Positions 3,133-32,672 are shown, counted from the stretch's first letter. The stretch is DNA of 64,000 nucleotides from an uncultured delta proteobacterium (GCA_963706575.1 CAVPNL010000006.1:224001-288000), one strand, 5' to 3'. Program-made: numbers and translations. The notes: generated from the sequence alone by a model not told the origin.

Positions 3133-4318
3133 TTGAATTTTATTGTCGATATTTTGCTTGCAAGTTGGAATTTGCTTGTTGATGCTTCGGTTTACATTTT
3201 ATTCGGTTTGCTGGTGGCCGGGCTTTTACGGGTATTTTTAAATCCGAATTCGATTGCCAAACATTTGGGCCAGGGGCGATTTAAATCCGTTATCAAGGCC
3301 GCTTTTTTTGGAATACCGATTCCGTTGTGATCGTGCGGTGTTCTGCCCGCAGCCGTGTCGCTGCGCAAACAGGGAGCCAGCAATGGCGCCACCACCGCTT
3401 TTTTGATTTCAACACCGGAATCCGGCGTGGATTCCATTTCCATTACCTACGCACTGCTGGATCCGATCATGACGGTCGCCCGCCCGTTGGTGGCCTTTGT
3501 GACCGCTGCGGTTGCGGGAATTACGGAAAATCTTTTTGGTTCAAACAACCAAACAGCACGGATTACCCCGGATTTGAGCTGTCCGGTGGATGGCTGCTGC
3601 GACGGACAAAACTGCTCCCCTGAGGAACACCGGCAACATCATAGTTTCTGGGAGAAATTTTCCGCCGGAATGCGTTTTGCCATCGGTGATCTCTGGGAAG
3701 ATCTGGCAGCGTGGTTTCTGATCGGACTCATATTGGCCGGATTGATTACCGTGCTGATCCCGCCGGATATGTTTGGTCAGATATCTGGGAGCCGGCCTTC
3801 CGGCCATGCTGATCATGCTGGCCATCGGCATTCCCTTGTATATTTGCGCGACGGCCTCCACACCGATTGCCGCCGCCCTGATTCTAAAGGGCGTCAGCCC
3901 GGGCGCAGCTCTGGTATTTCTTTTAGCCGGACCGGCGACAAACATGGCGTCTTTGACGGTCCTTACCGGCACGCTGGGCAAGCGGGCCACCGCCATTTAC
4001 CTGGCATCCATAGCGGTATGCGCCGTCTTGTTCGGTTTAATCGTTGACCAGGTTTATGCGTCTTTAGGCATTTCGGCCCAGGCGGTGGTGGGCCAGGCTT
4101 CTGAAATTGTGCCTGAATGGGCCGGTTTGCTCGGTGCCATTGCTATTCTGGGGATGTCAATCAAACCCGTCTGGAGCGCCATCCGGGCGCGCTTCAAACC
4201 GGCAGTGCCGCAGGAAGATGTCGAACATGAATTTAAACCTACCCGTCAAGAACCGCTGCCGGTGATTTCCGATTGTTGCCCGAACTGTGATTCTTCATCC
4301 GATTCAGGGCGATCCTGA
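3133..4318 (+). CDS. DUF318/SO_0444-type metal(loid) efflux permease, predicted selenoprotein (TGA 3328-3330), one frameshift near 3777
   Basis: GIPIPL-TGA-SCGVLP...ISTPESGVDS, where the family has PLCSCGV. The second repeat PLYICATASTPIAA lies in the 3773-4318 frame. Confidence 0.85.
3348..3365 (+). promoter_or_regulatory. SECIS-like hairpin (permease)
   Basis: CGCAGC-cgtgtc-GCTGCG, loop about 23 nt after the TGA. Confidence 0.6.
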
Positions 4319-10389: not shown

Positions 10390-11050
10390 TTGATTAAAAG
10401 ATTTTTAACCGTTGTCCTAGTTTTAATGGGGATGATGGCTTGTGCCACAACCCAACTACCCCCTGTTGGAGAGATGGACGCGCTTCAACTTCAGGCAGAT
10501 GAAAAACGAATATGGAATCGATCTAGTGAAGAACAAAGACGACTGAATAACAGCTCTTACATATACGAAGATCCTGTCTTATCCGCGTATGTAAACGAAG
10601 TGGCCCAAAATCTCATTCCACGAGGATATCAAAGGGAAAGGACTTTCCTTTCAAGGTTTGGATTATCCGCAATCCCCTTCTGAACGCATTCGCCTATCCC
10701 AATGGGGCGATTTATGTGCACACCGGTCTTATATCTAAAATGGAAAACGAAGCTCAGCTGGCATGGAATTGGACGGTTTCTGGAAATCGACTCCTCAAAA
10801 TTCCAGAGCGCATTTTTACATGGGCGAGCTATACCGGCAAAGAAACGATGAGGCGGATAGAGAAAAGGCCATAAATGAATATAGTTTGTCCATTACAGTA
10901 TGATCCTTCGAATCCCGCGCCCCATAAAGGCATCGGTCTGATCTACTACAAGCTGGGACGACCCCTGGAAGCAAGGTCAGAATTCGAGAAATACCTGATC
11001 GTTTTCCGGATGCGGACGATGCGGCATATATTGAACAATATATTGAAGCG
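10390..11050 (+). pseudogene. M48 peptidase/TPR lipoprotein with internal deletion and frameshifts
   Basis: Lipobox MMAC, NAFAYPNG..ENEAQLA jumps directly to TPR sequence. No HExxH. Confidence 0.6.
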
Positions 11051-11078
11051 ATGCCTACAAAATAACAGGAGGTTGGCA

Positions 11079-11640
11079 TTGAAAATAAAAAGCGGATTTT
11101 ATCTGTTATTTGTCTTTATGCTTTGCGGTTGTGTAGCAACCTGGGTGGCGGTAGGTGGTAACTATAAAACCGACTCTGAAAATTACGCAGTGGAACTGCC
11201 TGAAGGTTGGCGGCAGTATAATCCAGCGAAAGGATAAACTGCTCATTACTAAAGACGGATTTGCGCTTCAGCGGATACAAATCATGAGGTTAAAAATTGA
11301 TACCGAACTGCTGCATACCAAGAAAAAGTTTGAAAAGGGAATGCTTCCGCAAGAGGCGGCAGAAGTGGTTATTGATAATCTACGCTCCAACCCCAACATA
11401 TTGAACCAAAATGTCGTCGAGAATAAACCGGTGCAGATTGGCGGCCATCCCGGGTTTAAAATTGTCTATACTTACCAAAACAAAGGACGGATTAAATAAA
11501 AAAGGTGTTTTTTGCGGCTTGCTGACGACAAACTGGTGGTATGAGATTATTTATGAAGCGCCTGAAAGACATTACTTTGCAAACAGATCTTGCCGCTTTC
11601 GAAAAGGTTATAGAAACCTTCAGGCTGATTAAAGATGCCG
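11079..11640 (+). pseudogene. Frameshifted putative lipoprotein
   Basis: LCGC lipobox, coding-like fragments over three frames. Confidence 0.45.
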
Positions 11641-11834
11641 CTGCTGAGCCGCGATTCGTCTATGGCGATTGTATCAAAAGATTGGGCTGTCAGACACAAT
11701 GCAAAGGGCTCAAACTGAAATTTATTGCTGATGAGAAATATGGCCGGCGGATTGCAATTGATATTGTAGGGGATTAATTAAATTTGTTTAATACTTGCCG
11801 ATTCGCAAGAAATGGACTGCTGGTCAGCACTTTT

Positions 11835-15631: not shown

Positions 15632-16834
15632 TCAGAACACGGGCATGGGCATCTGGCCCCAGTAGTTTCGCGGTGCCGTGGATTCAACATTCTGCACTTT
15701 TCCATTGGCGGTATCCACATCCACCCGTAGCAAGGGTAAGTGTTTGACCGTGAAGGCCAGTGCTTCGTTGCCTGAAGCGTACTCCCCGTTTGGCCAGGTC
15801 AGTTGAGAGAAAATCAGCCGCATGGTGCCATCCCCCGTTGCGCCCATCATCTCATCGTGACCGCGGCGACTTAAAAATGGAAAAATAAACCCGATTACAG
15901 CGCCAAACGACCGCCGGGACCGCATGCGCATAACGGACATATCAGGCTGGGCAAAAAGAGCTTGCATCATGTATTGTTTGGGCATGATATGTACCATGAA
16001 TCCTTTTTGCCCCTGCTGTTGTAATTTTTCGATAGCGGCGGCAACAGCTCTGTCCTGAAAGGCGAAATCGATAATACTTTGCATCGATTCATCGGTCTGG
16101 GGCATTATCGAAACCGCCGTTAGCTTTTTTTCAGGAATATATAGTATGGATGTTTTGGAAATTGTATAACCGTGCAGACCAAACGCCCCCGCAGTAAACA
16201 ACACCAGGCAGACCCAATAAGCCAGCCCCAGCGCCAGCTTTTTCGAACGGATCCAACCGAACAGAGAGCGAAAAATTTTAGCGCCCGGCTCACCCGGGAG
16301 AAACATGGCCGTGTGCTCCATGTACGCGCGGTAGCTTTCCCCATGCTTTGCCAGCATACGCTGTTCCTCATACCGCGCCAGCAGATAGTAGACAAATAAC
16401 ATACTGACATACAGGATCAGGATAAAAAAGCGCGGCCAGAACAGGAGCAGGCCCAATCCGGCGATGGCGAGAAACAGATACTGAGGATGGCGAATCCATC
16501 GATACAGAATTCCGGTCACCACACCTTTGCGGCGAAACTTGGCCGCGTAAACCTGGAAAGCGCCGATCAAAAATGCTAGAATTCCAAGGGAGAACAGGGT
16601 TCGACCAAAACCGTTGACAAAATTGAGAAGACTGCTTTTGGAGACGACGGCATGGGGTAAGAAAAAGCCGGTCAGCCAGGCAGTGGCCGGAAAAGCATAG
16701 AGCGCGTTAAGTAACGGGCCATACCCGGCATAGAAATAGGCCGCAAAGGGGCTGATCATGATGATGATTTCGAGCCCGATTAACAAATAAAAAATCACGA
16801 CAGAAGTGCGAACAACTTTTCCTTGCAAACTCAT
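15632..16834 (-). CDS. Isoprenylcysteine carboxyl methyltransferase-family membrane protein with C-terminal extension
   Basis: GILYRWIRHPQY, EEQRM..HGESYRAY. Confidence 0.75.
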   Translation of the reverse strand: MSLQGKVVRTSVVIFYLLIGLEIIIMISPFAAYFYAGYGPLLNALYAFPATAWLTGFFLPHAVVSKSSLLNFVNGFGRTLFSLGILAFLIGAFQVYAAKFRRKGVVTGILYRWIRHPQYLFLAIAGLGLLLFWPRFFILILYVSMLFVYYLLARYEEQRMLAKHGESYRAYMEHTAMFLPGEPGAKIFRSLFGWIRSKKLALGLAYWVCLVLFTAGAFGLHGYTISKTSILYIPEKKLTAVSIMPQTDESMQSIIDFAFQDRAVAAAIEKLQQQGQKGFMVHIMPKQYMMQALFAQPDMSVMRMRSRRSFGAVIGFIFPFLSRRGHDEMMGATGDGTMRLIFSQLTWPNGEYASGNEALAFTVKHLPLLRVDVDTANGKVQNVESTAPRNYWGQMPMPVF

Positions 16835-16894
16835 GAGATCATTTGCTTCCTTTTTTTTTAGTTGAGGGGTCGGGGAGTTTTTTATTCAAAGCGT

Positions 16895-16967
16895 GTCATT
16901 CCCGCGCAGGCGGGAATCCAGAAATGTTCTGCTGAAAAAGCTGGATTCCCGCCTGCGCGGGAATGAC
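16895..16967. repeat. REP-like inverted repeat pair
   Basis: GTCATTCCCGCGCAGGCGGGAATCCAG...CTGGATTCCCGCCTGCGCGGGAATGAC. Second copy near 56460-56530. Confidence 0.8.
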
Positions 16968-17014
16968 GGGAAAAACTCCCCAACTGCTCATTTATTTAGC
17001 TTGTCTAATGTGGT

Positions 17015-17761
17015 TTATTTTCCAGCACGGATTAATACCCCTTCTGTAGCTGGTGAGCTGTTGAAACCCGTTTTTTTGACCAGTTCAGCATTCACAAAGC
17101 CGGCCCTTTGAAGCATTGCCAGGAAATCCTTTCCCGGTATAGCCCCGCCCTCTCATTGAGCCCAACTCTTAATTATTTTATCTTTTTCCTCGGGCAGCTC
17201 GCCAATGAGAATTTCGTCTGCCACCATCAGGCGGCCGCCGGGTTTTAAAACGCGGTAGATCTCACCAAAAGCCCTGGCTTTGTCGGGGACAAGGTTTAGG
17301 GCCCCATTTGATGTGACAACGTCAAAGTCTTCGTCTGCAAACGGCAAATTTTCAGCAGATCCTTCCTTAAAGACAACATTTTTTAAATCAGTCTTTGAAA
17401 GATTCTTTTTCGCCCGTTTAAGCATCGCCGGTGTTAAATCGACCCCTACCACTTTTCCCGTTGGCCCTGTCATCATCGCGGAAAAGAGCGTATCGACGCC
17501 GGCGCCACAGCCCACATCCAGTACCTCATCCCCTTTATCGACGGACCCCAATGTGAATGGATTGCCCACCCCGCAATATGAAGCGGCAACTTCCGCGGGT
17601 AACGCCTGCAGGAGTTCAGGATCATATTTTAGAGTTTTAAGTCCCTCATGGCCCGTGGGATAGCGAAACAGGCCATCCGGATTTTCAGCGGCCTTCGAAT
17701 ATGTTTTCCAAATCGTTTTTTGAATCCATTTTTTATCTTTAACCGTAAATTGAGTTTCCAT
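17015..17761 (-). CDS. ArsM-like SAM methyltransferase, predicted selenoprotein (Sec203, TGA 17153-17155)
   Basis: SYCGVGNP, LDVGCGAGVD. KSWAQ-TGA-EGGAIPGKDFLAMLQRAGFVNAE...GK-TAA parallels ArsM WxxC.xGA. Hairpin CCGGGAAA-gga-TTTCCTGG at 17119-17137. Confidence 0.82.
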
Positions 17762-17788
17762 GCATCCACCCTCTTTTGCAAAGACGAT

Positions 17789-18052
17789 TTACTGAAGGCC
17801 TGCCCGGATAGCCGCTTCCAGTTTTCTTTTGGAAATGTCCGTCCCTTCGACGACAATTTCATCCCCTACCATTATCGCAGGCGCAACCGGCAGATCAAGC
17901 TCGAAATATTCGTCGGTCATATATTCATCTTTTGGTTTTTCGATCGTTATCATCTCGATGTCGTATTTGGCACCCAGCCTGGGCATCATTTTTTTAAAGT
18001 GCTTTCAGGGCTTCCCATTGGGCAGGTTCATGAAAAATCTGACCTTCAACAT
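17789..18052 (-). CDS. Small thioredoxin-fold protein, predicted selenoprotein (Sec16, TGA 18005-18007)
   Basis: AGGAGG RBS + MLKVRFFMNLPNGKP-TGA-KHFKKMMPRLG...LPVAPAIMVG. Hairpin at 17971-17985. Confidence 0.8.
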
Positions 18053-18088
18053 GAAATCCTCCTTTTTGAAAAAGTGTTAATTTCTTAA

Positions 18089-19828
18089 TTATTCAGTTTT
18101 CCTAATTTCTGCCATTCGCACTAGAAATTGATCGGCCGGCAAAAAATCAACCAGGCGCAGATCGCGTCGTTCCTTTCCCCAACTGTCCAAAAAGATAACC
18201 GTGGGGACACCTTTAACGTTAAATTGACGCAATAAATCTTCATAGACCGGATTGCCTTTTCGGGTGAGGTCAATCTTTATCATGCTAAAATCTGTTTTAG
18301 CCTGTTTGACGATTTCAGGATTATGAAAAGTGACTTCATCCAGTTCGCGACAGGGAGCACACCAGTCGGCATAAAAATCAAGGATCACCGGCTTTTTCAA
18401 TCTCTGGGCATCCACCAGTAACGGTTCCGAGTAGGGCTGCCAGGCGACACCGGGACCGTGCATCACCCATGAACCAATAAGGGCCGTGGCGATGATCAGT
18501 CCGGTTATGGCTGTACCGGTTCTAAGCCACTCGAATCCCCGAAACTCGGCCCGGCTCCGATCTATCCAGCCCAGGTGTAATGCTGCTGCCAAAGCCACGG
18601 CGGACAGTAAGAACACTTTTACGGTACCGGGTAATAACGGCTGAATAAAATAAGCGGCCATGCCCACCAGAATCCAGCCCAAAAGTTTTTTTACCCACAG
18701 CATCCACTCACCGGAGCGGGGAAGTTTGCGCAGCTGTCCTGAAAACAGGGCCAGGAAAAAAAGAGGCAGACCCAGACCGAGGCTCAATGTAAAGAAGATT
18801 AAAAATCCGATCCAGATGCTTCCGATAGTGGCGACCCAGGTCAGCAGACCCAGGATAAACGGGCCGATGCACGCGGAGGCCACCACGCCTAATGTCATTC
18901 CCATAAACAGGCTGCCAAAGTAGCCGGAATAGGATTTTGACGCGGCCTGTGACAAACTGTATGGGAGTCGCATTTCCCAGAGTCCAAAGAGACTGGTGGC
19001 AAAGAAAATGAGTACGGCGGCCACCAGGACGAGCACGACGGGGTGTTGCAGTAAACTTCCAAGCATCCCGCCGCTCAAGGCCGCAATCACCCCGAGCACC
19101 GAGTTGGTGATCGCGAGTCCTCCGATATAACAGGTCCCGTGGATCAACAATCTTCTCTGGTTTTGACCACTTCTACCGCCGAAATAGGAAACCGTAATCG
19201 GGATTAAAGGGTAAATACACGGTGTCAGGTTCAGGGCGATTCCGCCGGCAAAGATTCCCAGAAGTGTCCATATCATCGCCCAGCCCTCTAAGGGCCGTGA
19301 CTGCTGGGGCGCAAGCGATGTTTCAGAAAGCCCGGCCGGAGAGCTGACAACGGGCAAATTCTTTGCGTGCCACTGCGGATAGCCCATGGGATCGCGAAAG
19401 ATATTTTTATAACCCAGTGTTACGGCCACCCGGGCCGCCGAGTCACTGCGGACTCATGCCAGCCCCGCTCAGTAAAACACGATGAAACGATTTTTGTCCG
19501 GCCCCAGAAATTTCTCAAGGGCGCCTTTATTTCGCCAGCGCGACAACCAGGTCGGCTCCATGGGGAAATTAAGGGCGCCATTGATGTGCCCGGTGCGGTA
19601 TTCCCATTCCTGACGGGTGTCCACCAGGAGTACCGTTTCAGGGTCTTTTTGATAGCGGTCCCATAATGCATCGGTGTCAATAATCCGGTAGCCGCCCTGC
19701 TGGGCCTCGGCCAGCACATCGTTCCAGGTTGCCGCCTTGGGGGTGACCACCCGGTTGGTGTGCCAAAGGTAACCGGCAGTAATGGTTATGGCGACTAAAA
19801 CGAAAACAGTTTTTTTAATTGCACTCAT
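18089..19828 (-). CDS. Rhodanese-DsbD(beta+gamma) fusion, predicted two Sec (TGA 19469-19471, 19454-19456), 579 aa
   Basis: IVFY-TGA-AGLA-TGA-VRSDSAARVAVTLGYKN joins two ORFs in one frame. LTPCIYP, ACIGP and WCAPC are DsbD motifs. Two hairpins at 19440-19455 and 19422-19438. Confidence 0.88.
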
Positions 19829-19919
19829 CTTGCCTATTGTCCGGTTGTCGATTCTGAAAAATAATTTATAATATTTTTTGGTAGTACTCCTGGCCAACCG
19901 CCATAAGGCGACATCGGAG

Positions 19920-20597
19920 CTATGCCTCTTTACCTACAGAAATTGGAAACCCCAGGGCTCGCAAGTCCTGGATTCCCTCTTCGAGCCGCACTGCCTGAAA
20001 ACCCCTTGAACGAAGCATCTCCACGGCCTGGATCGAAAGCACGCAGTATGGACCCCGGCAGTATGCCACGATTTCCTGATCGCGAGGCAAATCCAACAGG
20101 CGCAGTTGCAGCTCTTTAAGCGGGATGGAGATGGCCCCGGGGATGTGTCCGGCGTTGTATTCTTCCACCGGGCGGACATCCAGAACCGTGACTGCTCCTT
20201 TCCCAACCAGCTCCAGAAGCGATTTGCGATCAACCGGTTCCATACCCTCTCTTCCCTCCAGAAAGCGACGCTTGATTTGTTCCACCTCCGCCAGTCTGCT
20301 TTCGGCCAGAACCCGCATGGTGAGGAAAAACTCGCAGACCTTTTGATCGGCAAGACGGTAGTGAACAAATAGCCCCTCTTTTTCGGCCTCCACCAGGCGG
20401 GCTGTCCGCAGAACCTGCAGATGCTGGGAGGCATTTGCGACCGTCAAGCCGGATTCTTTGGCCAAAACCTCGACAGTTCGCGGGCCCTGGCACAGCAGAT
20501 CCAACAGCTCCAGTCGTTTCGGACTGGAAACCGCTTTTCCGATTCGTGCAAACTGCTCATAAATTGCATCTTTAAACACACGATTTGGATTTTTCAT
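19920..20597 (-). CDS. ArsR-family regulator fused to rhodanese domain
   Basis: SSPKRLELL, NASQHLQVL, DVRPVEEY..GHIPGA, YCRGPYC. Confidence 0.92.
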   Translation of the reverse strand: MKNPNRVFKDAIYEQFARIGKAVSSPKRLELLDLLCQGPRTVEVLAKESGLTVANASQHLQVLRTARLVEAEKEGLFVHYRLADQKVCEFFLTMRVLAESRLAEVEQIKRRFLEGREGMEPVDRKSLLELVGKGAVTVLDVRPVEEYNAGHIPGAISIPLKELQLRLLDLPRDQEIVAYCRGPYCVLSIQAVEMLRSRGFQAVRLEEGIQDLRALGFPISVGKEA

Positions 20598-20612
20598 TTC
20601 ATTCCTCTTTAG

Positions 20613-20660
20613 TATTCAATAGATTAATTGAATATTAAAATAAACCGATTCCTTTGTCAA
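20613..20660 (-). promoter_or_regulatory. Promoter and ArsR-type operator for regulator/selenoprotein operon
   Basis: Minus-strand TTGACA-17-TAATAT, perfect IR TATTCAAT-n6-ATTGAATA 20613-20634. Confidence 0.7.
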
Positions 20661-20780
20661 GAAAAAGGCGACTTAGGTTAAAAAATGTTGGGTCAAAGAC
20701 CTATCGGAAAGATTTCGACCCATAGAGGAAAATCGTGTAGGCGGAAAAGATCTTACCATCAAATGCAATTTATGGAGAAT

Positions 20781-21346
20781 TTAAAGGCTGGAATTCTGAT
20801 ACATTTTGAGGATTTCTACTTCGCGTGAAAGCCTTATCATGGTGTTCGAAAGTGCGTTAATCAGGCCGTCACCCGTACGAAAATGCTCCTTGTCAGCCCA
20901 GCTATCTTTTAATTGATGCATCCAGCTGTTGGGTGCAGGCGGTACCTTATTCCAGCCGGCATACGGAGCATAAAATAGATAAATATCCCAGGCAACGTGC
21001 CCGTCCCACCCAATACTCTTTGCGATCTCTTTTCCAACAATTTGATCTTGATCGTAAAAATGCCGGAATCTTTTATCACTTAAATACTTAACAGATGGAA
21101 GTGCGGCTTCTATAGAATCATTATCAAGTATTGGAATCCAAACAATTGAAGCAGCGATATCCGCATCCGGAAATTTTGTGATAATTGTCTCGTGTACCGC
21201 CCGGGCACCCTGGTCGCGTCACAATGGACAAGTCGGCGAGAGTAAGGCCAGAAATCGTATTTTCTCCTATTGTTATTAAATTGGTCTTTGAGCGGGTCTA
21301 AAAAGCTGTTCAGCGTTACTATATTGTTTGATTGGTTGATCTCCAT
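20781..21346 (-). CDS. Thioredoxin-fold protein with CxxU (TGA 21219-21221), frameshift near 21260
   Basis: ...LKDQFNNN / IRFLALLSPTCPL-TGA-RDQGARAV...VWIPIL...RHFYD...AWDIYLFY...WMHQL, open to TAA 20781. Confidence 0.75.
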
Positions 21347-21375
21347 TAAACTGGGTCCTTACTTTAAATCTTTTT

Positions 21376-21891
21376 TCAACGAATCATATTAAAAGAAATT
21401 TTACCATTCAGTTTATCCACCACCTGGCGGACGTCAGCCAAACATCACCTGCCTTTCGGATTCTTGTTGGCGCAATCGCAAGCACCGGCCTTCTTCTCTG
21501 CTGCGATTTTTTCAATGATCAACGATCGCCCATTTTTGATGAAATCCTGTTCGATATCATTTACGGTATATCCAAAACAGTAACATATTAGATCATCTAA
21601 CTTATAATCTAAATTCTCAGGAGGTTTATCGGAAATATCAGTCGAAGGTGTTTTGTCATTGGTTTTCAGATTCGCAACATACCCGACTTTAAGCAATGTT
21701 TGACAGATTTTCTCTACTGAAACTGTGGATTTGTCATACGATACGATAGCTTTTTTTTCCGGATAACTTGCAAAAGCCTTTTTAACTCCTGGCAGCTCTT
21801 CCAGAGCGCTTACCACTTTGGGCTCTCAGCCCATTCAGGTCATACCCTGTACCTCTAATTCAATCTCATGGGTTCCGTCTGTTGTCTTCAT
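21376..21891 (-). CDS. HMA domain + CopZ-like Cys-rich (putative 2Fe-2S) domain protein with three predicted Sec (U19, U22, U149), 171 aa
   Basis: LEVQGMT-TGA-MG-TGA-EPKVVSALEELPGV, ICYCFG, CDCANKNPKGR-TGA-CLADVRQVV. Hairpins at 21790-21815 and 21415-21432. Confidence 0.85.
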
Positions 21892-22078
21892 ATTTGGTGC
21901 TCTCAAGGCTAATTATTTGGCTTTCAAGATTTATACAAAAAGGTTATAATCTACCGTTTAAAAGGTCAATTCCAAAACTTAATCGACTTCCTTATATCAA
22001 ATATCTGCCTTAATATGCTTGCCACCTTCTAAATCGTTATAGACCTGATATGATGGTCCGGCTTGCGCACTATTAGTA

Positions 22079-22555
22079 CTAGTGCGGAGAAATCAGACGG
22101 CCAAAGCAGCTTCTGCGATTGCCTTCAAATAGAAAAATCTGCATACCGAAGACGAAATAAATGACATCCCGCACCAGCGTCAATTCGGGAGAGCTGGCAT
22201 ATCCGCTCTGTCCGGTGGAAAAACACCCGCAATCAAATTCATGGCCACGGATCAGATTGATGGCCAACACAGTGACAAAAGCCAGAAGCAGGGCGTTAAT
22301 GATAATGGCCGCCGAGCGTGGATAAAGACCGATGATTAAGGCGAATCCGGCAACGAGTTCCAGAAAGGGGATGACGATAGCAATCAGGTTGATGAACATT
22401 GCCGGAAAAAGATCATATCCGTATACGATTTTGGCAAAATCCGCGGGTGAAATAATTTTATGCAAACTGGCATAAATAAAGGTGATGCCAAGAATCCAGC
22501 GTCCCGCCAGCTCGATCCAGCTGTTGTTTTTTATGAATTGTGCCCGATTATTCAA
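22079..22555 (-). CDS. MauE/DoxX-family membrane protein
   Basis: GITFIYASLHKI, FDCGCF. TTG start overlaps the upstream stop. Confidence 0.85.
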   Translation of the reverse strand: MNNRAQFIKNNSWIELAGRWILGITFIYASLHKIISPADFAKIVYGYDLFPAMFINLIAIVIPFLELVAGFALIIGLYPRSAAIIINALLLAFVTVLAINLIRGHEFDCGCFSTGQSGYASSPELTLVRDVIYFVFGMQIFLFEGNRRSCFGRLISPH

Positions 22556-23042
22556 TTGGATACCCTTCGGCTTCCCAGCCCGGAAATCCGTCAATAAAAA
22601 TCCGCACATTGGTGAATCCAAGGTCTGAAAGAAGCTGGGCCAGCTTGTGGCTATCTTCACAAGTTCTGCCGGAACAATAGGTCACAATGGGCTGTTCGGG
22701 TGGATAGCGGTTGAGGAAGGACTCGATCCGCTTTTCAAATTGGCCTACCGGCAGCGATACGGCTCCCGGGATATGGCCGTTTCCGTAATGGTTTTGCGAA
22801 CGGGCGTCTACAAAAAGAACGTCACCTTTATCAAATAGGGTTTTGGCCCGGGCGACGCTGTCAATTTCTGCTGGCTTTCCCTCTGCAATTCCGCCGGGGC
22901 TGGCGGTAATCACGCCTTCGGCGATATCCCACTGTCCCACCAGGGCAATACCCCTTGGCGAAAGCGTGTTAACCGCCAGGGCCAGGGCCAGCGAAACGCC
23001 CACCAGGATGATGATTTCCTTGATTGTTTTGCGAATAACCAT
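22548..23042 (-). CDS. Membrane-anchored rhodanese
   Basis: VDARS..GHIPGA, TYCSGRTCEDS. Confidence 0.9.
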   Translation of the reverse strand: MVIRKTIKEIIILVGVSLALALAVNTLSPRGIALVGQWDIAEGVITASPGGIAEGKPAEIDSVARAKTLFDKGDVLFVDARSQNHYGNGHIPGAVSLPVGQFEKRIESFLNRYPPEQPIVTYCSGRTCEDSHKLAQLLSDLGFTNVRIFIDGFPGWEAEGYPIE

Positions 23043-23197: not shown

Positions 23198-24058
23198 CTA
23201 TTTTATGAAGGTGCCGTTTTTAATCTCCTCCAATGTCTGTTCAATTTCTTCCTGGGTATTCATGACAAACGGCCCCCAGCGTGCGATGGGCTCGTTTAAA
23301 GGTTTGCCTGAAACCAGCAAAAACCGAACACCCGGTTCCGCTGCCCGCACGGATGCCTGATCACCGTCCCCAAATACAATCAGACGGGGATGAGGAATCG
23401 GTTTGCCGGGTTTTGCGTCGCCGGTTTCAAATACGCCCTCGCCCTCAAAAATATATGCAAAGGCAGCGTGATCCCTTGCGATGGCATGGGAAAACGCTCC
23501 ATTAGGTGGAATCGAGATATCCAGGTAGGTGGGTTCGGCCACGATCTCTTTTACGGGGCCGTGTACACCGTCCACCTCACCGGCGATAACACGGATTTTT
23601 ACGCCATCTTCATGCTGGATTTCCGGTATTTGATCAGACGTAATATTCTGATAGCGCGGGCTTGTCATTTTAAGTTTGGCAGGCAGGTTCACCCACAGCT
23701 GAAAACCGACCATTTCGTCCTCATGGGGCTGGGGCATTTCCTCATGCATAATACCGCGACCGGATGTCATCCATTGAACGTCGCCGTCGGTTATGCTTCC
23801 CGAATTGCCGATGCTGTCCTTATGGTTCACATGTCCGCTGATCATATAGGTTACGGTTTCAATTCCCCGATGGGGATGCATGGGAAATCCCTTCATGTAA
23901 TCGGCAGGATCCTTGGATCCGAAATGATCAAACAGTAAAAAAGGATCGACATGATCCAATGTATTGGTAGCAATACTTCTGATGAGTCTTACCCCGGCAC
24001 CTTCCATTACGGCTTGCGGTTCAATTATCTCTTGAACTTTTCGGGTTTGATTGGTCAT
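23198..24058 (-). CDS. Pirin-family protein
   Basis: DPFLLFD, HPHRGIETVTY, GIMHEE, FQLWVNLP. Confidence 0.93.
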   Translation of the reverse strand: MTNQTRKVQEIIEPQAVMEGAGVRLIRSIATNTLDHVDPFLLFDHFGSKDPADYMKGFPMHPHRGIETVTYMISGHVNHKDSIGNSGSITDGDVQWMTSGRGIMHEEMPQPHEDEMVGFQLWVNLPAKLKMTSPRYQNITSDQIPEIQHEDGVKIRVIAGEVDGVHGPVKEIVAEPTYLDISIPPNGAFSHAIARDHAAFAYIFEGEGVFETGDAKPGKPIPHPRLIVFGDGDQASVRAAEPGVRFLLVSGKPLNEPIARWGPFVMNTQEEIEQTLEEIKNGTFIK

Positions 24059-24080
24059 AATTATTACCTTAATTTGCATT

Positions 24081-24158
24081 GTGGGAGCGGCTTCCAGTCG
24101 CGAATACAAGAGCAAATATCACCGTGTTCTGGATATCGCGGCTGAAAGCCGCTCCCAC
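24081..24158. repeat. REP-like GTGGGAGCGG...CCGCTCCCAC pair
   Basis: Also near 31325-31396 and 44981-45040. Confidence 0.7.
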
Positions 24159-24210
24159 GTTTGTGAGGAAACCTGTTAAACAATTAAGTCCTTATTTTCT
24201 TAAGTCCTCC

Positions 24211-24822
24211 TTAATTTACCAATTTGGATGCAATGCCGGCCACGTGTTTGCCCTGAAAGCGTGCAGCTTCCAATTCGTTCTCGCTGGGCATTCTGGAGCC
24301 GTCACCTCCGGCAATTGTCGATGCTCCGTATGGGGACCCGCCGGTAATTTCATCTATTCGCATTTGACCCTGAAAGGAATAAGGCAGACCGACTACCACA
24401 AAACCGTGATGAAGCAGGGTGACATGAAACGTAAGAATGGTGGATTCCTGCCCGCCGTGCTGGGTGGCGGTGCTGGTAAAAACGCTGCCGACTTTGCCCA
24501 CCAGGGAACCATTTGCCCACAGCTGTCCGGTGGCATCTAAAAACTGGCGCATTTGCCCGCACATATTGCCGAAACGGGTTGGGGTGCCGAAAATAACTGC
24601 ATCGGCTTTGGCCAGATCATCCACCGCCGCCTCCGCTATCTGTGAAAATGCTTTTTGGGCGTCAACCGCTCCCATTTTTTCCAGAACCTCCTGCGGCAGC
24701 GTTTCGGGTACTCGTCGAATTTCAACTTCAGCGCCGGCAACGGTTTTTACGCCTTCGGCGACGGCTTGCGCCATTTTATACACATGTCCATATGTCGAAT
24801 AGAAAACGATTAGTACTTTCAT
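24211..24822 (-). CDS. wrbA: NAD(P)H:quinone oxidoreductase
   Basis: [30 protein letters not shown]. Confidence 0.93.
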
Positions 24823-24845
24823 GTTCAAATCCTCCTCTATAAAAT

Positions 24846-25298
24846 TTATGATTCCCCGCTGAGGCCCAGTTTTTTGCACAATCGCCCTAGCGCATCCTGT
24901 TCGGCCGCCGTCAGCACCCCCAAATCTTCAGCGATCACGGCGGCATGCGGGGGAAATATTTTGTTGATGAGGTGGTATCCCTTATCGGTCAGATGAACGA
25001 TAAAAAACCGGCGGTCGGTTTCACTGCGCTTGCGCCTTACCAGTCCGCTTTTTTCGAGGTTGTCGATCACCATTGTAATATTGCCGCTGCTTCTAAGGAT
25101 TTTTTGCCCGATTTCCCTCTGGGACAGGGGGCCTAATTGATACAGCGCCTCGAGCACGGCAAACTGACTGATGGTCAGGCCCGTCGAAGACAGATGCCGG
25201 TGGGTGCGGGCGGTCACCGATTCTGCCGCTCTCATCAGCTTTACATATGTCCTTAATGCCCGGGTTTCCGCTTTGTTCCCCCGATATCGGCCCCTCAT
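24846..25298 (-). CDS. MarR-family regulator
   Basis: [27 protein letters not shown]. Confidence 0.92.
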
Positions 25299-25313
25299 AA
25301 TTACCTCAACATT

Positions 25314-25337
25314 AATTAGTTTAATATTAAAATAATT
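25314..25337. promoter_or_regulatory. Putative MarR operator
   Basis: 24-bp palindrome AATTAGTTTAAT|ATTAAAATAATT (1 mismatch) between TTGACA (minus strand) and the RBS. Confidence 0.6.
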
Positions 25338-25386
25338 TGGTTTCATTTATTTGTCAAGTGCATTACCAAATTAGTGGGAACCGAAC

Positions 25387-27140: not shown

Positions 27141-27818
27141 ATGCGATTATTATTAGTAGAAGACGACATCAAGATTGCTCAATTTGTGGTGAACGGACTC
27201 AAGGAGGCCGGTTTTGCGGTTGATCACGCCGCAAATGGCGAGGACGGACTGCACCTGGCGTTGACCGAGCCCTATGATATTGCTGTTGTGGATCTGATGT
27301 TACCCAAGGTCGACGGCCTGACACTCATCGAAGAGGTCCGCCGAAACGACATCAATACCCCGGTTCTGATTTTAAGCGCCAAAAGATCGGTTGATGATCG
27401 GGTCAAGGGTCTCAAAACAGGCAGTGATGATTATCTGGTCAAACCGTTTGCCTTCGCCGAGCTGCTGGCCCGGGTCCAGGCCCTCATTCGTCGGTCAACC
27501 CACGTCACCGCTCCGTCCGAGCTTAAGGTCGCTGATCTGACGTTAGACTTGAATTCGCGTAAGGTTTTCAGGGCCGACGAGGAAATTATGCTGCAGCCGC
27601 TCGAATTTTCCCTGCTCGAATATCTGATGCGCAACGCCGGTCGGGTCGTTTCCAAAACCATGATCATGGAACATGTCTGGGATTATAACTTCAGCCCCCA
27701 GACGAATGTTGTCGAAGCCCGCATATGTTATCTGCGGGATAAGATTGATAAGAATTTTGTTAGAAAGCTGATCCATACGGTTCGGGGTGTCGGATATGTT
27801 CTTAAGGAAGCTTCATAA
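27141..27818 (+). CDS. CusR/CopR-like response regulator
   Basis: LVEDD, DDYLVKPFAFAELLARV, TNVVE, HTVRGVGY. Confidence 0.9.
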   Translation: MRLLLVEDDIKIAQFVVNGLKEAGFAVDHAANGEDGLHLALTEPYDIAVVDLMLPKVDGLTLIEEVRRNDINTPVLILSAKRSVDDRVKGLKTGSDDYLVKPFAFAELLARVQALIRRSTHVTAPSELKVADLTLDLNSRKVFRADEEIMLQPLEFSLLEYLMRNAGRVVSKTMIMEHVWDYNFSPQTNVVEARICYLRDKIDKNFVRKLIHTVRGVGYVLKEAS

Positions 27819-29195
27819 TTTTAAAAATTCGCTGTTATTTCGCTTAACGATTCTGTATGCGGTGGCATTTACCGTCCTGTCAACCATCGGTTTTCTGATT
27901 TTTTATTACCGTATTTATGCCGTCACCATGGAGGGTCTGGATCTTGAGTTACTGGATAAAACTCGAAAGTACGCGGACCTGACGAAAGAAGTCGGTCTGG
28001 AAGGCGTCCTGCCTGAAATTGCGGATGAGACTGAATCTGAAGACCCGCAAGAAGACTTTTACCGTCTTTTCAATTTCAAAGGGGATATTCTTTTCACCAC
28101 CGATATGTCCTTCTGGGGGGTCATTGACAGGAAGGACATTCTGTTAAAAATGCAAAATGAAGGCTTGAGTTATGCATTCCAAACGCAGACCTTCGAGGAG
28201 CGCGATGATAAGGCCCGCATGATAACGGCAATTGTCGGCCCGGATACCGTGTTGCAGATCGGAGAGAGCCTTGAAGAAGTCGATGAATATTTGGATATTT
28301 TTCTCGAATTGGTTTCCATCCTGGTTATCAGTTTAATTATCGTGTCGACGATCATTGGATGGTTGCTGGCAAGGCGGGCTACAATTGACATGCAAGAAGT
28401 CGCTGAAACCGCAGAAGAAATAGCAAACGGTTCCTATGACAGGCGCGTGCAGGTCAAAGGCCGGTACAGGGAGATCGAACGGCTGAGCGCCGCGTTTAAC
28501 AGCATGCTGGACCGTATTCAGAGTTTGCTGAATTCCATGAAAGAAATTAACGATAATATCGCCCACGACCTCAGAAGTCCCCTGGCCAGAATTCGCGGCA
28601 TCGCCGAAATGAGTCTGCTCAAAGAAAAATCCATTGACGCATACAAAGACATGGCCGCCAGCACCATTGAAGAATGCGATACTCTGATTGGTATGATCAA
28701 TACCATGCTGGACATCACGGAAGCTGAAGCCGGTGTCAACGGCGTTGAGGCTGAAGAATTTGAACTGGTCACCCTTATCCGCGAGGCCTGTGAACTTTTT
28801 CGCCCAATAACTGAGGAGAAAAAAATAAATTTGAAAACCGATCTGCCCGAATCCCTGACGGTAATGGGCAACAAAAAAAAGATGCAACGGATCGTGACCA
28901 ATCTGCTGGAAAATGCCATAAAATACACCCCCGCAGACGGAACCATTGCTGTTTCCGCCGCAGCGCAAAACGGCGAGCTTCGAATCGAATTTGAAGACAC
29001 GGGGATGGGTATTTCAGAAAGCGACCTGCCCCACATCTTCGAGCGCTTTTATCGCTGTGATCGCAGCCGATCCCAGGGCGGCGTAGGCTGGGCCTCAGCC
29101 TGGTCAAAGCCTATACCGAATCCTTAAACGGCACGATTCAGGTCGAGAGCACCCTGAATCAGGGCAGCCGCTTTGCGCTCAGATTTGTTCGTTGA
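27796..29195 (+). CDS. HAMP sensor histidine kinase, frameshift near 29088
   Basis: IAHDLRSPL, NLLENAIKY, DTGMGI. G2 box GLGLSLV continues in the shifted frame to TGA 29195. Confidence 0.88.
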
Positions 29196-29551
29196 GCCTT
29201 CAATCCCGATGAAACCGCTCATGAGATTCCCCAGCTTCACTCATGCCGGTACAAATCTGATCCGGGTCATTGCGAGAAATCATAAGAGCATGAAACTGCT
29301 CTGGATTTCCGGGTCAGGCCAGAAATGCCAAACAAGACTAACACCTGCCATCATTTTCTCCCCAGTAATCGAACGGATCTCCATTTTCTTACGCCACATT
29401 ATCAAATGATAATTTCTGGAATAATCTTCCGGTAAAATTTGTTGTTTATACTCGGAAGCCAGAGTCGGAAGTCAATTTTCGATGGACTCCTGGAAATAAT
29501 TCCTTGAGTCTAAGACTCGACAACGGATTTCTGCAGCGCCGAGGTATTCTG

Positions 29552-31429: not shown

Positions 31430-32672
31430 TCAGATCCCCTTCAAATATTCCCGGATCATCAATGCGGCGCTGCCGCCTTCGCCGGCGGCGCTGACGACCT
31501 GCTTGGTGCTTTTGTCGCGCACATCACCGGCGGCAAAAATTCCGGGTATGCTGGTTTCCAGCAGCAGGGGGTCGCGCTTCTCAAAGCCGGCCTGGCCGCT
31601 TTTCCTCGTGCAAGAGGGCATGGCCGGTGACGACAAACCCCCATTCGTCGAGCAGAATGCCGCTGTCGGCCAGAAACCCGGTGTTGGGCACCAGGCCGAT
31701 AAAAATAAAAACCCCGTCCACCGGCATTTCCTGCTCTTCATCGGTCTGATTGTTGTGGACCCGCAGCCGGTTGAGCTTTGCATCTTTTCCCATAAATTCC
31801 TTGACTTCGGTGTGCCAGCGCACCTCAATTTGCGGATGGCTGAGGACCTTTTCCTGAATGATTTGCGTCGCCTTGAATTCGCCGCCGCGCACCAGAATCG
31901 TGACCTGTTCGGCGAATTTGGTCAGCAGCAGGCTTTCTTCGGTGGCGCTGTTGCCGCCGCCGACCACCGCCACCTGTTTGCCTTTGTAAAAGGGTCCGTC
32001 GCAGGTCGCGCAAAAGTGAACGCCGGCACCGATGTACTCGTTTTCGCCCGGCACATTCAGGCGTTTGTAGCGGCTGCCGGTGGCGATCAGCAGCGCGTCG
32101 GCACTGTACTGGCTGCCGTCTTCGGTTGTGACACCATGGTAATTATCGGTGCTGCTAACGGCGGCAATCTGCTGAGCCTGCAGCAGTTCCACGCCGAAGC
32201 GTTCCGCCTGCCGGCGCAGGCGCTCGGAAAACTCGATTCCGGCAACGCCATCGGGAAATCCGGGCATGTTATCCAGTTTTTCGGTTCCGGCGGCCTGGCC
32301 GCCGAAGGCGGCGCGCTCGATCACCAGGGTGTCGATGGCTTCGCGGGCCGTATAGAGGGCCGCCGTCAAGCCGGCGGGCCCGCCGCCTAAAACGATCAGG
32401 TCGTAATGGCTGCGGGCGGCTTTGGTCTTCAGACCCAGTTTGGCCGCCAGCTCCGCATTGCTGGGCTCCACCAGAAAGGAGTCGTCGGCAAATGTAATTG
32501 TCGGAATGATGCGCTTGCCGTCGTTTTTTTCGATCACAAACGCTTCGGCCTGTTGGTCCTGTTCAATATCCACCCAGTTGTAGGGGATCTGGTGCTCGCC
32601 CAGAAACTGCTTGCTGCGGCGGCAGTCCGGGCACCAGTGGGCACCGTATACGGTGATTTCCGCATCGGACAT
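31430..32672 (-). CDS. trxB: Glutaredoxin-like domain fused to thioredoxin reductase, frameshift near 31590
   Basis: WCPDC, GGGPAG, CATCDG, GGGNSA. TSIPGIFAAGDV in the shifted frame. Confidence 0.85.

What the first reader, a model, noticed from the sequence alone, without database searches (positions are those of the whole stretch)
17015..23042. Hidden selenoprotein island: 8 in-frame UGA codons in 5 clustered genes around an ArsR-rhodanese regulator
Seen: the ORF track fragments this region, but reading through TGA gives five complete co-oriented proteins. The TGAs are at 21835, 21826, 21445, 21219, 19469, 19454, 18005 and 17153. Most fall where the family has a catalytic or metal-binding Cys, and all are followed by a stem-loop with a G-containing loop about 15-32 nt downstream. 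Cys-form controls lie in the same locus (YCSGRTC, YCRGPYC versus YUAGLAU). Established: bacterial Sec insertion uses UGA plus an adjacent 3' SECIS. Inference: metal chaperone, Trx-fold proteins, transmembrane electron conduit and methyltransferase form a Sec-based metal(loid) or sulfane-sulfur detoxification system. Some members recall curated families (TsoB/TsoC/MduS-type, from memory, unverified). This combination may be undescribed.
Basis: partly seen in the sequence, partly recalled or inferred. Interest (0 to 1): 0.95.

Follow-up and report, generated by a model that had tools for sequence, protein, structure and literature searches.

The report
Selenoprotein operon hiding two uncatalogued selenoproteins
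Eight apparent stop codons in five neighbouring genes of a sulfate-reducer-like bacterium are conserved and almost certainly read as selenocysteine: two genes belong to the already catalogued Tso operon, while a three-selenocysteine metal-chaperone-like protein and a thioredoxin-fold protein match no curated family and likely form an add-on module for handling toxic metals.

Summary
The eight in-frame TGAs are real Sec sites. The genome has selA, selB, selC and selD. Each TGA is conserved in relatives and followed by a SECIS-like hairpin.
The core is known. TsoB (1007 bits, cut-off 805) and TsoC (144, cut-off 45) are curated members of the Tso operon. This variant lacks TsoA and TsoR and has an ArsR-rhodanese instead. 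This scan found that variant before on other DNA (e1-3586681).
The methyltransferase is an unfused Sec ArsM-like domain lacking one arsenic-binding Cys; a conventional arsM lies elsewhere.
New here is a low-GC two-gene cassette. One gene fuses an HMA domain (UxxU) to a CopZ-type Fe-S-like domain (GRUC). The other belongs to a TlpA-like 'SPT' family (CxxC, CxxU, UxxC, UxxU forms; 1,329 clusters; no NCBIfam match). Elsewhere the pair also sits beside merA or acr3.
Likely function: selenol-based reduction and handling of soft metal(loid) or sulfane adducts; untested.

The parts
22548..23042 (-). Membrane-anchored rhodanese-homology protein with YCSGRTC loop (all-Cys form)
   Evidence: Pfam Rhodanese E 2.8e-19; N-terminal hydrophobic segment 2-29
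22079..22555 (-). MauE/DoxX-family membrane protein with CGC motif (start codon uncertain)
   Evidence: Pfam MauE E 6.4e-26; follows the rhodanese in relatives
21376..21891 (-). Triple-Sec fusion: HMA domain (GMTUMGU, U19/U22) + linker + CopZ-N-terminal-like Cys-rich domain (CYC, CDC, GRUC, U149); ends at a TGA stop without a hairpin
   Evidence: HMA fold in model and fold search; full fusion with all three TGAs in 15 of 61 metagenome loci
21835..21837 (-). Sec codon U19 of the HMA fusion
   Evidence: TGA in 18 of 20 covering alignments; the other 2 are distant Cys HMA domains on L096
21826..21828 (-). Sec codon U22 of the HMA fusion
   Evidence: TGA in 18 of 20 covering alignments
21795..21807 (-). 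SECIS-like hairpin (loop GGA) likely shared by U19 and U22
   Evidence: All 5 pairs kept in 15 of 15 distinct sequences, loop GGA in 15 of 15
21445..21447 (-). Sec codon U149 (GRUC)
   Evidence: 54 TGA and 4 TGC of 58 alignments
21415..21432 (-). SECIS-like hairpin of U149 (loop AGGU)
   Evidence: 53 of 66 pass at <= -7.5; G-T/A-T/G-C and C-G/T-G/T-A exchanges
20781..21346 (-). 'SPT' thioredoxin-fold selenoprotein gene (LSPTCPLU), frameshifted near 21264-21268 in this assembly
   Evidence: no NCBIfam match for 72 members; TlpA/ResA-like fold
21219..21221 (-). Sec codon of the SPT protein (CxxU)
   Evidence: 28 distinct loci: 15 CxxU, 10 UxxU, 3 UxxC; Cys homologs read SPTCxxC
21194..21208 (-). 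SECIS-like hairpin of the SPT gene (loop CGGGC; weak, -5.8 kcal/mol)
   Evidence: 5 pairs kept in 24 of 24 distinct sequences, with T-A/C-G/T-G exchange
20613..20660 (-). Sigma-70-like promoter overlapped by a palindrome (TATTCAAT-N6-ATTGAATA), a candidate operator of the ArsR-rhodanese
   Evidence: Promoter scan; palindrome recognisable upstream of most of 19 ArsR-rhodanese starts; only perfect copy in the genome
19920..20597 (-). ArsR/SmtB regulator fused to a rhodanese domain (YCRGPYC)
   Evidence: NF033788 72 > 55 bits; TsoR model 47.8 < 115; Pfam HTH_5 + Rhodanese
18089..19828 (-). tsoB: rhodanese (YUAGLAU) - DsbD membrane domain (C204, C320) - thioredoxin (WCAPC)
   Evidence: NF045694 1007 > 805 bits; Pfam domains
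19469..19471 (-). Sec codon U120 of TsoB
   Evidence: TGA in 51 of 52 alignments
19454..19456 (-). Sec codon U125 of TsoB; it also forms the 5' arm of the first hairpin
   Evidence: TGA in 51 of 52 alignments; pairing
19422..19456 (-). Two tandem SECIS-like hairpins (loops CGCAGU and CGGGU)
   Evidence: 62 of 62 and 59 of 62 pass; synonymous positions fixed, e.g. GAC in 61 of 61 Asp codons against 45% background
17789..18052 (-). tsoC, small selenoprotein (NLPNGKPU), with no Cys in the sequence
   Evidence: NF045708 143.6 > 45 bits
18005..18007 (-). Sec codon U16 of TsoC, followed by a hairpin at about 17985-17971 (loop GGC, -6.2 kcal/mol)
   Evidence: 56 TGA, 1 CGA, 1 gap of 58
17015..17761 (-). 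Stand-alone Sec ArsM-like SAM methyltransferase (QUEGG; SNG in place of SNC)
   Evidence: Covers positions 1-248 of NF041537/NF041536, below their cut-offs; U203 aligns with the catalytic Cys of solved As(III) methyltransferases; SNG in 8 of 8 Sec-type homologs
17153..17155 (-). Sec codon U203 of the methyltransferase, followed by a hairpin at about 17137-17119
   Evidence: TGA in 8 of 8 close homologs, TGC in a canonical ArsM; -14.0 kcal/mol
15632..16834 (-). Membrane methyltransferase-like protein (PEMT/ICMT), possibly the last gene of the run
   Evidence: Pfam PEMT E 6.7e-8; same position in L091 (95% identical), not seen in other loci

Best explanation
This is a variant of the known Tso selenoprotein operon (ArsR-rhodanese regulator, tsoB, tsoC, Sec methyltransferase) with an adjacent, likely inserted two-gene cassette, and it likely works as a selenium-based reducing and metal(loid)-handling system. 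Recoding: SelB with tRNA-Sec likely reads each UGA using the hairpin just downstream (machinery, conservation and hairpins shown; Se incorporation inferred). Electron conduit (inferred from DsbD biology): TsoB would pass electrons from a cytoplasmic thioredoxin-fold donor, possibly TsoC or the SPT protein, through the membrane Cys pair C204/C320 to its outward-facing WCAPC domain. From there they would reach its N-terminal UAGLAU rhodanese loop, which stands where DsbD has its alpha domain. That loop would reduce or strip sulfane-sulfur or soft-metal(loid) adducts outside the membrane. Regulation (inferred): the ArsR-rhodanese likely represses its own transcription unit through the palindrome at 20613-20634. 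Cassette (inferred): the HMA UxxU site would capture soft ions (Hg, Cu, As). The Fe-S-like GRUC domain and the SPT oxidoreductase would keep chaperone and ion reduced. The methyltransferase would methylate a single-thiol/selenol-bound substrate rather than carry out classical As(III) methylation.
For: selA, selB, tRNA-Sec and selD all over cut-off. TGA conservation: TsoB 51 of 52 at each site, TsoC 56 of 58, U149 54 of 58 (4 TGC), methyltransferase 8 of 8. Hairpins enriched over random TGA and fixed at synonymous sites. TsoB and TsoC over curated cut-offs; domain order rhodanese-DsbD_TM-thioredoxin. TsoA and ArsR-rhodanese exclude each other upstream of tsoB: 26 TsoA, 8 ArsR-rhodanese, 0 both, 20 neither of 54 loci. 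Cassette GC 41.6%. The CopZ-N-like gene lies directly upstream of the SPT gene in 22 of 28 distinct loci, 14 of which were found through the chaperone itself. Metal contexts away from Tso: merR-like + merA directly upstream on L096 (MerA 527 > 454), a MerA-like gene cut by the locus edge (389 bits, below cut-off) plus a MIP channel on L190, acr3 on L191 (330 > 283), a MerR-like N-terminus fused to the GRUC domain on L188 (by eye). A. fulgidus CopZ, an HMA + Fe-S fusion, reduces Cu(II) (PMC7558416, passage).
Against: No function has been tested for any Tso protein in what I could read. The metal contexts are 4 loci among 28; many others have unrelated neighbours. TsoB loci in general show no conserved metal-resistance neighbours. 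This genome has no MerA over cut-off. The C-terminal domain's Fe-S binding rests on sub-cut-off HMM matches (52.8 < 100; Fer2_BFD 18.8 < 26), and no solved structure matched it by sequence or fold. TsoB's N-terminal hydrophobic stretch did not pass my hydropathy threshold, so the outward location of the rhodanese is inferred. The SPT gene is frameshifted here and survives only as fragments in three same-genus genomes (G011, G013, G015).
Confidence: 0.5

Rival explanations
1. The Tso core is a housekeeping extracytoplasmic redox or maturation pathway. TsoB, the CxGxxC rhodanese and MauE would repair or mature periplasmic proteins (disulfides, persulfides, Sec enzymes) after oxygen exposure. The cassette and methyltransferase would be unrelated selenoprotein genes that accumulated nearby.
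For: DsbD-type architecture and MauE partner. wrbA, pirin and a MarR regulator lie just upstream, also in relatives. tsoB-tsoC neighbours vary widely. The review calls Tso neighbours 'otherwise unrelated'. The cassette has its own GC content and occurs without Tso.
Against: Control by an ArsR/SmtB sensor with a rhodanese domain and a conserved operator points to an inducible response to a reactive ligand. ArsM-like Sec methyltransferases recur beside tsoC in several lineages (L018, L027, L044, L051, L059).
Confidence: 0.3
2. The system handles selenium or sulfur itself. The rhodanese-fused repressor would sense (per)selenide or polysulfide, TsoB would reduce it, and the two methyltransferases would volatilise the excess as methylated Se or S.
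For: Three rhodanese domains with CxGxxC/UxxxxU loops. The methyltransferase lacks the Cys174 equivalent needed for As(III) binding, and a Cys-rich conventional arsM lies at C6:75.6-76.4 kb. The downstream membrane methyltransferase weakly resembles MddA (E 1.3e-5).
Against: The MddA match is far below cut-off (24.6 against 270), and that gene follows the operon in only one relative (L091). The cassette's contexts elsewhere are mer and ars genes.
Confidence: 0.17
3. The TGAs are true stops, sequencing errors, pseudogene lesions or a TGA=Trp code, and the region is decayed or misread.
For: The assembly has indel errors or lesions: 3 of 36 testable genes are split across frames, and one gene of this locus is frameshifted. 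Some gene callers read these TGAs as Trp.
Against: The same TGAs occur in dozens of independent genomes at Cys-equivalent sites with conserved hairpins. Sec machinery and tRNA-Sec(UCA) are present, and tRNA-Trp has CCA. TGA also ends ordinary genes here.
Confidence: 0.02

Closest known systems
Tso 'three selenoprotein operon' (TsoA NF045695, TsoB NF045694, TsoC NF045708, TsoR NF045707; Haft & Tolstoy 2025, seen only through the review PMC13188914 and NCBIfam)
   Same: tsoB-tsoC adjacent and over curated cut-offs, same Sec motifs, further selenoprotein genes alongside, an ArsR-type regulator upstream
   Different: No TsoA or TsoR found in the genome; an ArsR-rhodanese fusion with its own palindrome stands directly before tsoB; an HMA/SPT cassette is added
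DsbD transmembrane disulfide reductase (NF001419, PF02683)
   Same: Membrane domain with two Cys and a C-terminal CxxC thioredoxin domain
   Different: The N-terminal domain is a double-Sec rhodanese instead of the Ig-like alpha domain (alpha-domain role recalled); score 259.8 < 330
Sec metal-binding HMA protein (NF041115, UxxU) and Sec CopZ-family (2Fe-2S)-binding protein form 1 (GxUC; cd10141 in the review); A. fulgidus CopZ
   Same: GMTUxxU loop in an HMA fold; CYC/CxC/GRUC domain; A. fulgidus CopZ also fuses HMA and Fe-S domains
   Different: Both Sec-bearing domains in one chain with three Sec and HMA first. Below all cut-offs (62 < 95; 52.8 < 100; 22.7 < 190). No such fusion in the review's table of 119 families.
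TlpA/ResA/DsbE-like thioredoxin-fold oxidoreductases; loosely defined Sec Trx/Prx-like families (e.g. 'Prx-like thiol:disulfide oxidoreductase', UxxC/UxxU)
   Same: Predicted extended thioredoxin fold (Z 11-12.7, rmsd about 3 A over 123-136 residues) with a four-residue redox motif after the first core strand
   Different: 8-17% identity to these structures; own motifs (LSPT, VW..L..D, AWDIYLFY, W.HQL); 0 of 72 members match NCBIfam and at most 3 match Pfam weakly; CxxC, CxxU, UxxC and UxxU forms all occur
Arsenite methyltransferase ArsM/AS3MT and Sec fusions NF041536, NF041537, NF047649
   Same: SAM-dependent fold; Sec at the Cys224-equivalent (UxxG); matches the whole N-terminal domain of the fusions
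   Different: No fused domain; Cys174-equivalent is Gly; N-terminal Cys offset by two residues; below all cut-offs

Membership tests
Bacterial selenoprotein genes | selA, selB, selC, selD in the genome | tested here: met
   All over cut-off; tRNA-SeC(TCA) on C3
Bacterial selenoprotein genes | In-frame TGA conserved in relatives or paired with Cys, homology on both sides | tested here: met
   no Cys partner seen for TsoC U16
Bacterial selenoprotein genes | bSECIS-like hairpin (loop 3-9 nt, G in first two positions, 16-37 nt away, <= -7.5 kcal/mol, as in PMC13188914) | tested here: met
   6 of 8 meet my script's version (spacing 15-37). SPT (-5.8, 15 nt) and TsoC (-6.2) fall short in energy but are conserved. 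Own script, not bSECISearch.
Bacterial selenoprotein genes | Selenium found in the protein | not testable with these tools
   Needs 75Se labelling or MS
TsoB (NF045694) | Score over cut-off; UxxxxU motif; rhodanese/DsbD fusion | tested here: met
   1007 > 805 bits over model positions 2-571
TsoC (NF045708) | Score over cut-off; GxxU motif | tested here: met
   143.6 > 45 bits; motif reads NLPNGKPU
Canonical Tso operon | TsoA (LULAxC) upstream of tsoB | tested here: not met
   Absent from the locus; no match in G000 by family search (the model found TsoA in G043) or tblastn; genome 92% complete
Canonical Tso operon | TsoR regulator | tested here: not met
   Best 50.4 bits < 115 in the genome
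Canonical Tso operon | tsoB followed by tsoC | tested here: met
   36-base gap in the window
MduS | Two Sec, CxxU motif (review table) | tested here: not met
   One Sec in QUEGG
Canonical ArsM/AS3MT | Four conserved Cys including the Cys174/Cys224 As-binding pair (PMC6138428) | tested here: not met
   Cys174-equivalent is Gly in this protein and in 8 of 8 Sec-type homologs; NF008823 206.6 < 263
ArsM-fusion selenoproteins (NF041536/NF041537/NF047649) | Fused C-terminal DUF2284, AhpD or UXPK-star domain | tested here: not met
   TAA stop after residue 248; scores below cut-offs
UxxU metal-binding protein (NF041115) | UxxU in an HMA fold | tested here: met
UxxU metal-binding protein (NF041115) | Score over curated cut-off, single small domain | tested here: not met
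   62 < 95 bits; extra C-terminal domain
CopZ N-terminal Fe-S domain (NF047645/NF045877) | Score over cut-off / structural match to the A. fulgidus domain | tested here: inconclusive
   E 4.8e-14 but 52.8 < 100, partial; fold searches were filled by the HMA domain
Thioredoxin fold (SPT protein) | Thioredoxin fold with redox motif at the start of the active-site helix | tested here: met
   Model of the L030 homolog, pLDDT 95.8; Z up to 12.7 to TlpA/ResA-like chains
Any curated Sec Trx/Prx-like family (SPT protein) | Match to an NCBIfam or Pfam model | tested here: not met
   0 of 72 in NCBIfam at E 0.01; Pfam Thioredoxin_4 2 of 72, Redoxin 1 of 72
Literature-only Sec families without an HMM (e.g. 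Prx-like UxxC/UxxU WP_010940744.1; cd02966 types; BSepDB entries) | Sequence similarity to the representative protein | not testable with these tools
   Representatives not retrievable by accession here

The most novel reading that the evidence does not exclude
The low-GC cassette is an undescribed mobile selenium-based soft-metal module. It pairs a triple-Sec HMA/Fe-S chaperone-reductase with a dedicated oxidoreductase from an uncatalogued thioredoxin-fold selenoprotein family that exists in all four states (CxxC, CxxU, UxxC, UxxU). It plugs into mer, ars and Tso loci of sediment Desulfobacterota, here in an hgcA-bearing genome, and controls the intracellular Hg/As/Cu pool. I put the narrower claim, that the SPT family is an uncatalogued selenoprotein family, at about 0.75.
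Probability: 0.3. Interest if true: 0.78.

Novelty: new variant of a known kind. Interest (0 to 1): 0.5.

Why it matters
The Tso operon has no tested function in the sources I could read. This variant adds handles: a regulator with a predicted operator for finding the inducer, and a co-located metal-chaperone cassette. Two proteins extend the selenoprotein catalogue. Gene callers cut the chaperone to a fragment of about 123 aa between U22 and U149 in some 100 database clusters, and cut the SPT family after its motif (63 of 155 alignments start after it). The SPT family, with all four Cys/Sec combinations, is a natural series for asking what Sec adds at each position. The locus also shows two ways of decoding close UGAs: one shared hairpin for UxxU, and two tandem hairpins for UxxxxU.

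Tried and rejected
Haft & Tolstoy 2025 and Sazinsky 2007 are not held. The Tso description comes from the review and NCBIfam names only, so the original paper or its supplements may already show these neighbours.
Paper searches: ArsR + rhodanese fusion regulators gave 0 papers; 'SPTU' + selenoprotein + bacteria gave 0; the UxxU search gave 8, and of those I opened only the review and the SAO preprint. Only part 1 of 400 of the BSepDB supplement was seen; its one sheet is a genome list.
Read check: the four runs laid are contigs of related strains, not shown to be the source. Only 40 of 509 difference rows were shown, so TGAs were not verified in raw reads. The RNA run holds 7% of the words and shows nothing about expression.
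The sequence search of the GRUC domain against solved structures gave only noise, and whole-model fold searches tested only the HMA part.
SPT profile against TsoC: no similarity. No second copy of the SPT gene or the fusion in the genome. No convincing terminator within the run.
Atlas search with a natural Cys homolog returned unnamed clusters first, then TlpA/AhpC at 0.86, a lead only.
Rejected: MduS, canonical ArsM, canonical Tso with TsoA/TsoR, TGA=Trp, and one fixed five-gene system. No complex prediction was run.

Full report
Host and setting. The window is G000:C6:224001-288000 of a 5.67 Mb, 25-contig genome, 92% complete. The closest named relatives of its TsoB (73-83% identity) are Desulfobacterales MAGs and the Olavius Delta 1 symbiont. 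Near-identical DNA occurs in estuary and marine sediment metagenomes. Delta 1 is known for an unusually large selenoproteome and for pyrrolysine (PMC1976440, parts 2-3 of 5 read), and this genome also has tRNA-Pyl. A dense Sec cluster is therefore expected in this lineage.

The observation. selA, selB, tRNA-Sec and selD are all over their cut-offs. Among 80 genome loci fetched with TsoB, 52 high-scoring alignments cover the Sec sites, and 51 have TGA at each. The rest are DsbD-only matches or are cut short, and one extra rhodanese copy on L061 has TGT/GGC. TsoC has TGA in 56 of 58 alignments (1 CGA, 1 gap). The chaperone's U149 has 54 TGA and 4 TGC of 58, and U19/U22 have TGA in 18 of 20. The methyltransferase has TGA in 8 of 8 close homologs.

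SECIS evidence. With a script modelled on the consensus in PMC13188914, 6 of 8 sites pass at -7.5 kcal/mol and 8 of 8 at -5. Random genomic TGAs pass in 80 of 600 and 130 of 600, and the chaperone's real TGA stop fails. Stems keep pairing across homologs with some two-sided changes. In tsoB, synonymous positions in the stems are nearly fixed: Val GTC 56 of 59 (background 28%), Asp GAC 61 of 61 (45%), Ser TCG 52 of 62 sequences (17% of Ser codons). These sequences are related, so the counts overstate independence. UxxU motifs (HMA, SPT) share one hairpin. The UxxxxU of TsoB has two tandem hairpins, the first of which uses the second UGA as its 5' arm.

One correction. The thioredoxin-fold gene is not complete: its start (21346) is out of frame with the Sec-bearing part. 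All 29 non-self rows examined (24 loci) are in frame at this junction. Contigs of related strains show +1 or -2 bases at 21264-21268, both of which restore the frame. 3 of 36 testable genes in this assembly are split across frames, as are the second selD and a second hgcA-like copy. I put an assembly error at about 70%. Against that, three same-genus genomes keep only fragments of the gene, so real decay occurs.

What is known. P0003 is TsoB (1007 > 805 bits) and P0004 is TsoC (144 > 45). The review PMC13188914 (section 7 parts 1-2 of 3, section 9, whole-text part 2 and passages read) lists both. It describes the Tso operon as three selenoprotein genes with several unrelated selenoprotein neighbours. 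The primary paper was not available. TsoA and TsoR were not found in this genome. In 54 tsoB loci, 26 have TsoA, 8 have the ArsR-rhodanese, none has both and 20 have neither, some cut short. A palindrome over a sigma-70-like promoter precedes the regulator, is recognisable in most of 19 upstream regions and is the only perfect copy in the genome. An earlier agent reported the same regulator swap in another genome (e1-3586681). I had already tested it.

The methyltransferase covers positions 1-248 of the ArsM/AhpD and ArsM/DUF2284 Sec models but stops there; fused forms occur on L027, L051 and L059. U203 aligns with the C-terminal catalytic Cys of solved arsenite methyltransferases. The partner Cys (Cys174 of CmArsM, needed for As(III) binding per PMC6138428, passages) is Gly here and in 8 of 8 Sec-type homologs. 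A conventional Cys-rich arsM lies beside an arsR at C6:75 kb. Classical As(III) methylation is therefore doubtful. It is not MduS.

What I did not find catalogued, part 1: the triple-Sec chaperone. It joins an HMA domain (fold confirmed, Z 13.5, rmsd 1.1 A over 72 residues) to a CopZ-N-terminal-like Cys-rich domain. Each half resembles a listed Sec family (NF041115 UxxU; GxUC form in the review), but both score below cut-off and the fusion is not in the review's table. It is complete with three TGAs in 15 of 61 metagenome loci and in 0 of 60 related GTDB genomes, many of which carry only the GRUC domain. Among 120 listed database homologs most are fragments of about 123 aa; 94 end in PKGR or PKGK, just before U149. 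The eight full-length or near-full-length ones I read have Trp from a TGA=Trp call.

Part 2: the SPT family. An intact homolog (L030, UxxU) finds 1,329 clusters at 50% identity. Full-length hits mostly read SPTCxxC, and 63 of 155 alignments begin after the motif. At DNA level, 28 distinct loci including this one give 15 CxxU, 10 UxxU and 3 UxxC. None of 72 members matches NCBIfam, and Pfam gives only 2 weak Thioredoxin_4 and 1 Redoxin matches. The model (pLDDT 95.8) has a TlpA/ResA-like fold, Z up to 12.7 at about 13% identity. The family is patchy: 11 of 61 relatives, 6 of 401 class genomes and 3 of 401 phylum genomes, each count including G000. I could not compare it with literature-only Trx/Prx-like Sec families, so 'uncatalogued' is limited to NCBIfam 20.0, Pfam, the review's table and the searches. 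Look-ups among earlier findings by sequence returned nothing for either protein.

The two genes travel together. The GRUC gene is directly upstream of SPT in 22 of 28 loci. Fourteen of those were found through the chaperone; among the 14 others it is upstream in 8, downstream in 1 and not seen in 5, one of them at a contig edge. The pair has 41.6% GC against 50-55% around it and is missing from L012 and L044, where mauE runs into the regulator. Away from Tso it lies behind merR-like/merA (L096), behind a MerA-like gene and before a MIP channel (L190), behind acr3 (L191), or carries a MerR-like N-terminus (L188). Many other loci have unrelated neighbours. This genome has hgcA but no MerA over cut-off.

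Mechanism. Shown: codons, machinery, hairpins, domain content, gene order, co-occurrence. From established DsbD biology (recalled): cytoplasmic thioredoxin to membrane Cys pair to periplasmic thioredoxin domain to an N-terminal substrate-facing domain. Inferred: TsoB's double-Sec rhodanese takes that last role and reduces sulfane or soft-metal(loid) adducts. The ArsR-rhodanese senses a related ligand. The cassette binds and reduces soft metals, by analogy to A. fulgidus CopZ (PMC7558416, passage). I give this reading 0.5, a housekeeping redox/maturation role 0.3, a Se/S-handling role 0.17 and non-recoding 0.02.

Verdict. Real and well supported as recoding (about 97%), but the core is a known operon and its regulator variant was seen before in this scan. 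The value lies in two apparently uncatalogued selenoproteins forming a separate cassette. Novelty: new variant of a known kind; interest 0.5. Other papers seen: PMC12013277 (passages), PMC13326102 (abstract, section 11, first part of the supplement), bioRxiv 2022.07.06.499078 (passages).

Noticed in passing
window 16866-16995: A 130-nt palindromic element (DNA fold -48 kcal/mol, z -11) between the methyltransferase and the PEMT-like gene, with 128 BLAST pieces in the genome (both arms counted). It looks like a REP/MITE-type repeat; in L091 the same gap is only about 54 bases.
   Followed up: partly
G000:C15:118432-118505: tRNA-Pyl (CTA): the genome likely uses both Sec and pyrrolysine, like the Olavius Delta 1 symbiont.
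   Followed up: no
G000:C24:15398-16375 (L186) and C6:512100-513080: hgcA over cut-off (Cys form) with a ferredoxin gene behind it, and a second hgcA-like copy in three pieces: a candidate mercury methylator.
   Followed up: partly
G000:C5:349796-350719 and C3:438965-439886: Two selD genes, both with an in-frame TGA near the N-terminus; the second is split across frames.
   Followed up: partly
window 27787-29285, 3469-4318, 10390-11777: Further genes that look broken by single-base indels (sensor kinase, permease, peptidase-like region), consistent with an indel-prone assembly.
   Followed up: partly
L056:7543-8001 and other TsoA copies: TsoA ends in a helix-turn-helix-like stretch (by eye) and excludes the ArsR-rhodanese upstream of tsoB, hinting that TsoA is itself a Sec-based DNA-binding sensor.
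   Followed up: partly
L008:6237-6497: A tsoC copy with CGA instead of TGA at the Sec site but an intact hairpin: a recent loss or a sequencing error.
   Followed up: no
window 23198-25346: MarR-wrbA-pirin genes precede the rhodanese-mauE pair here and in several relatives (L008, L030, L044, L092).
   Followed up: partly
L011, L017, L018, L019, L023, L031, L037, L049, L057, L059: Two tsoC-like paralogs in tandem behind tsoB, both with TGA.
   Followed up: no
window 31581-32672 (-): A 363-aa ORF beginning with a glutaredoxin-like WCPDC domain; its upstream region looks frameshifted.
   Followed up: no
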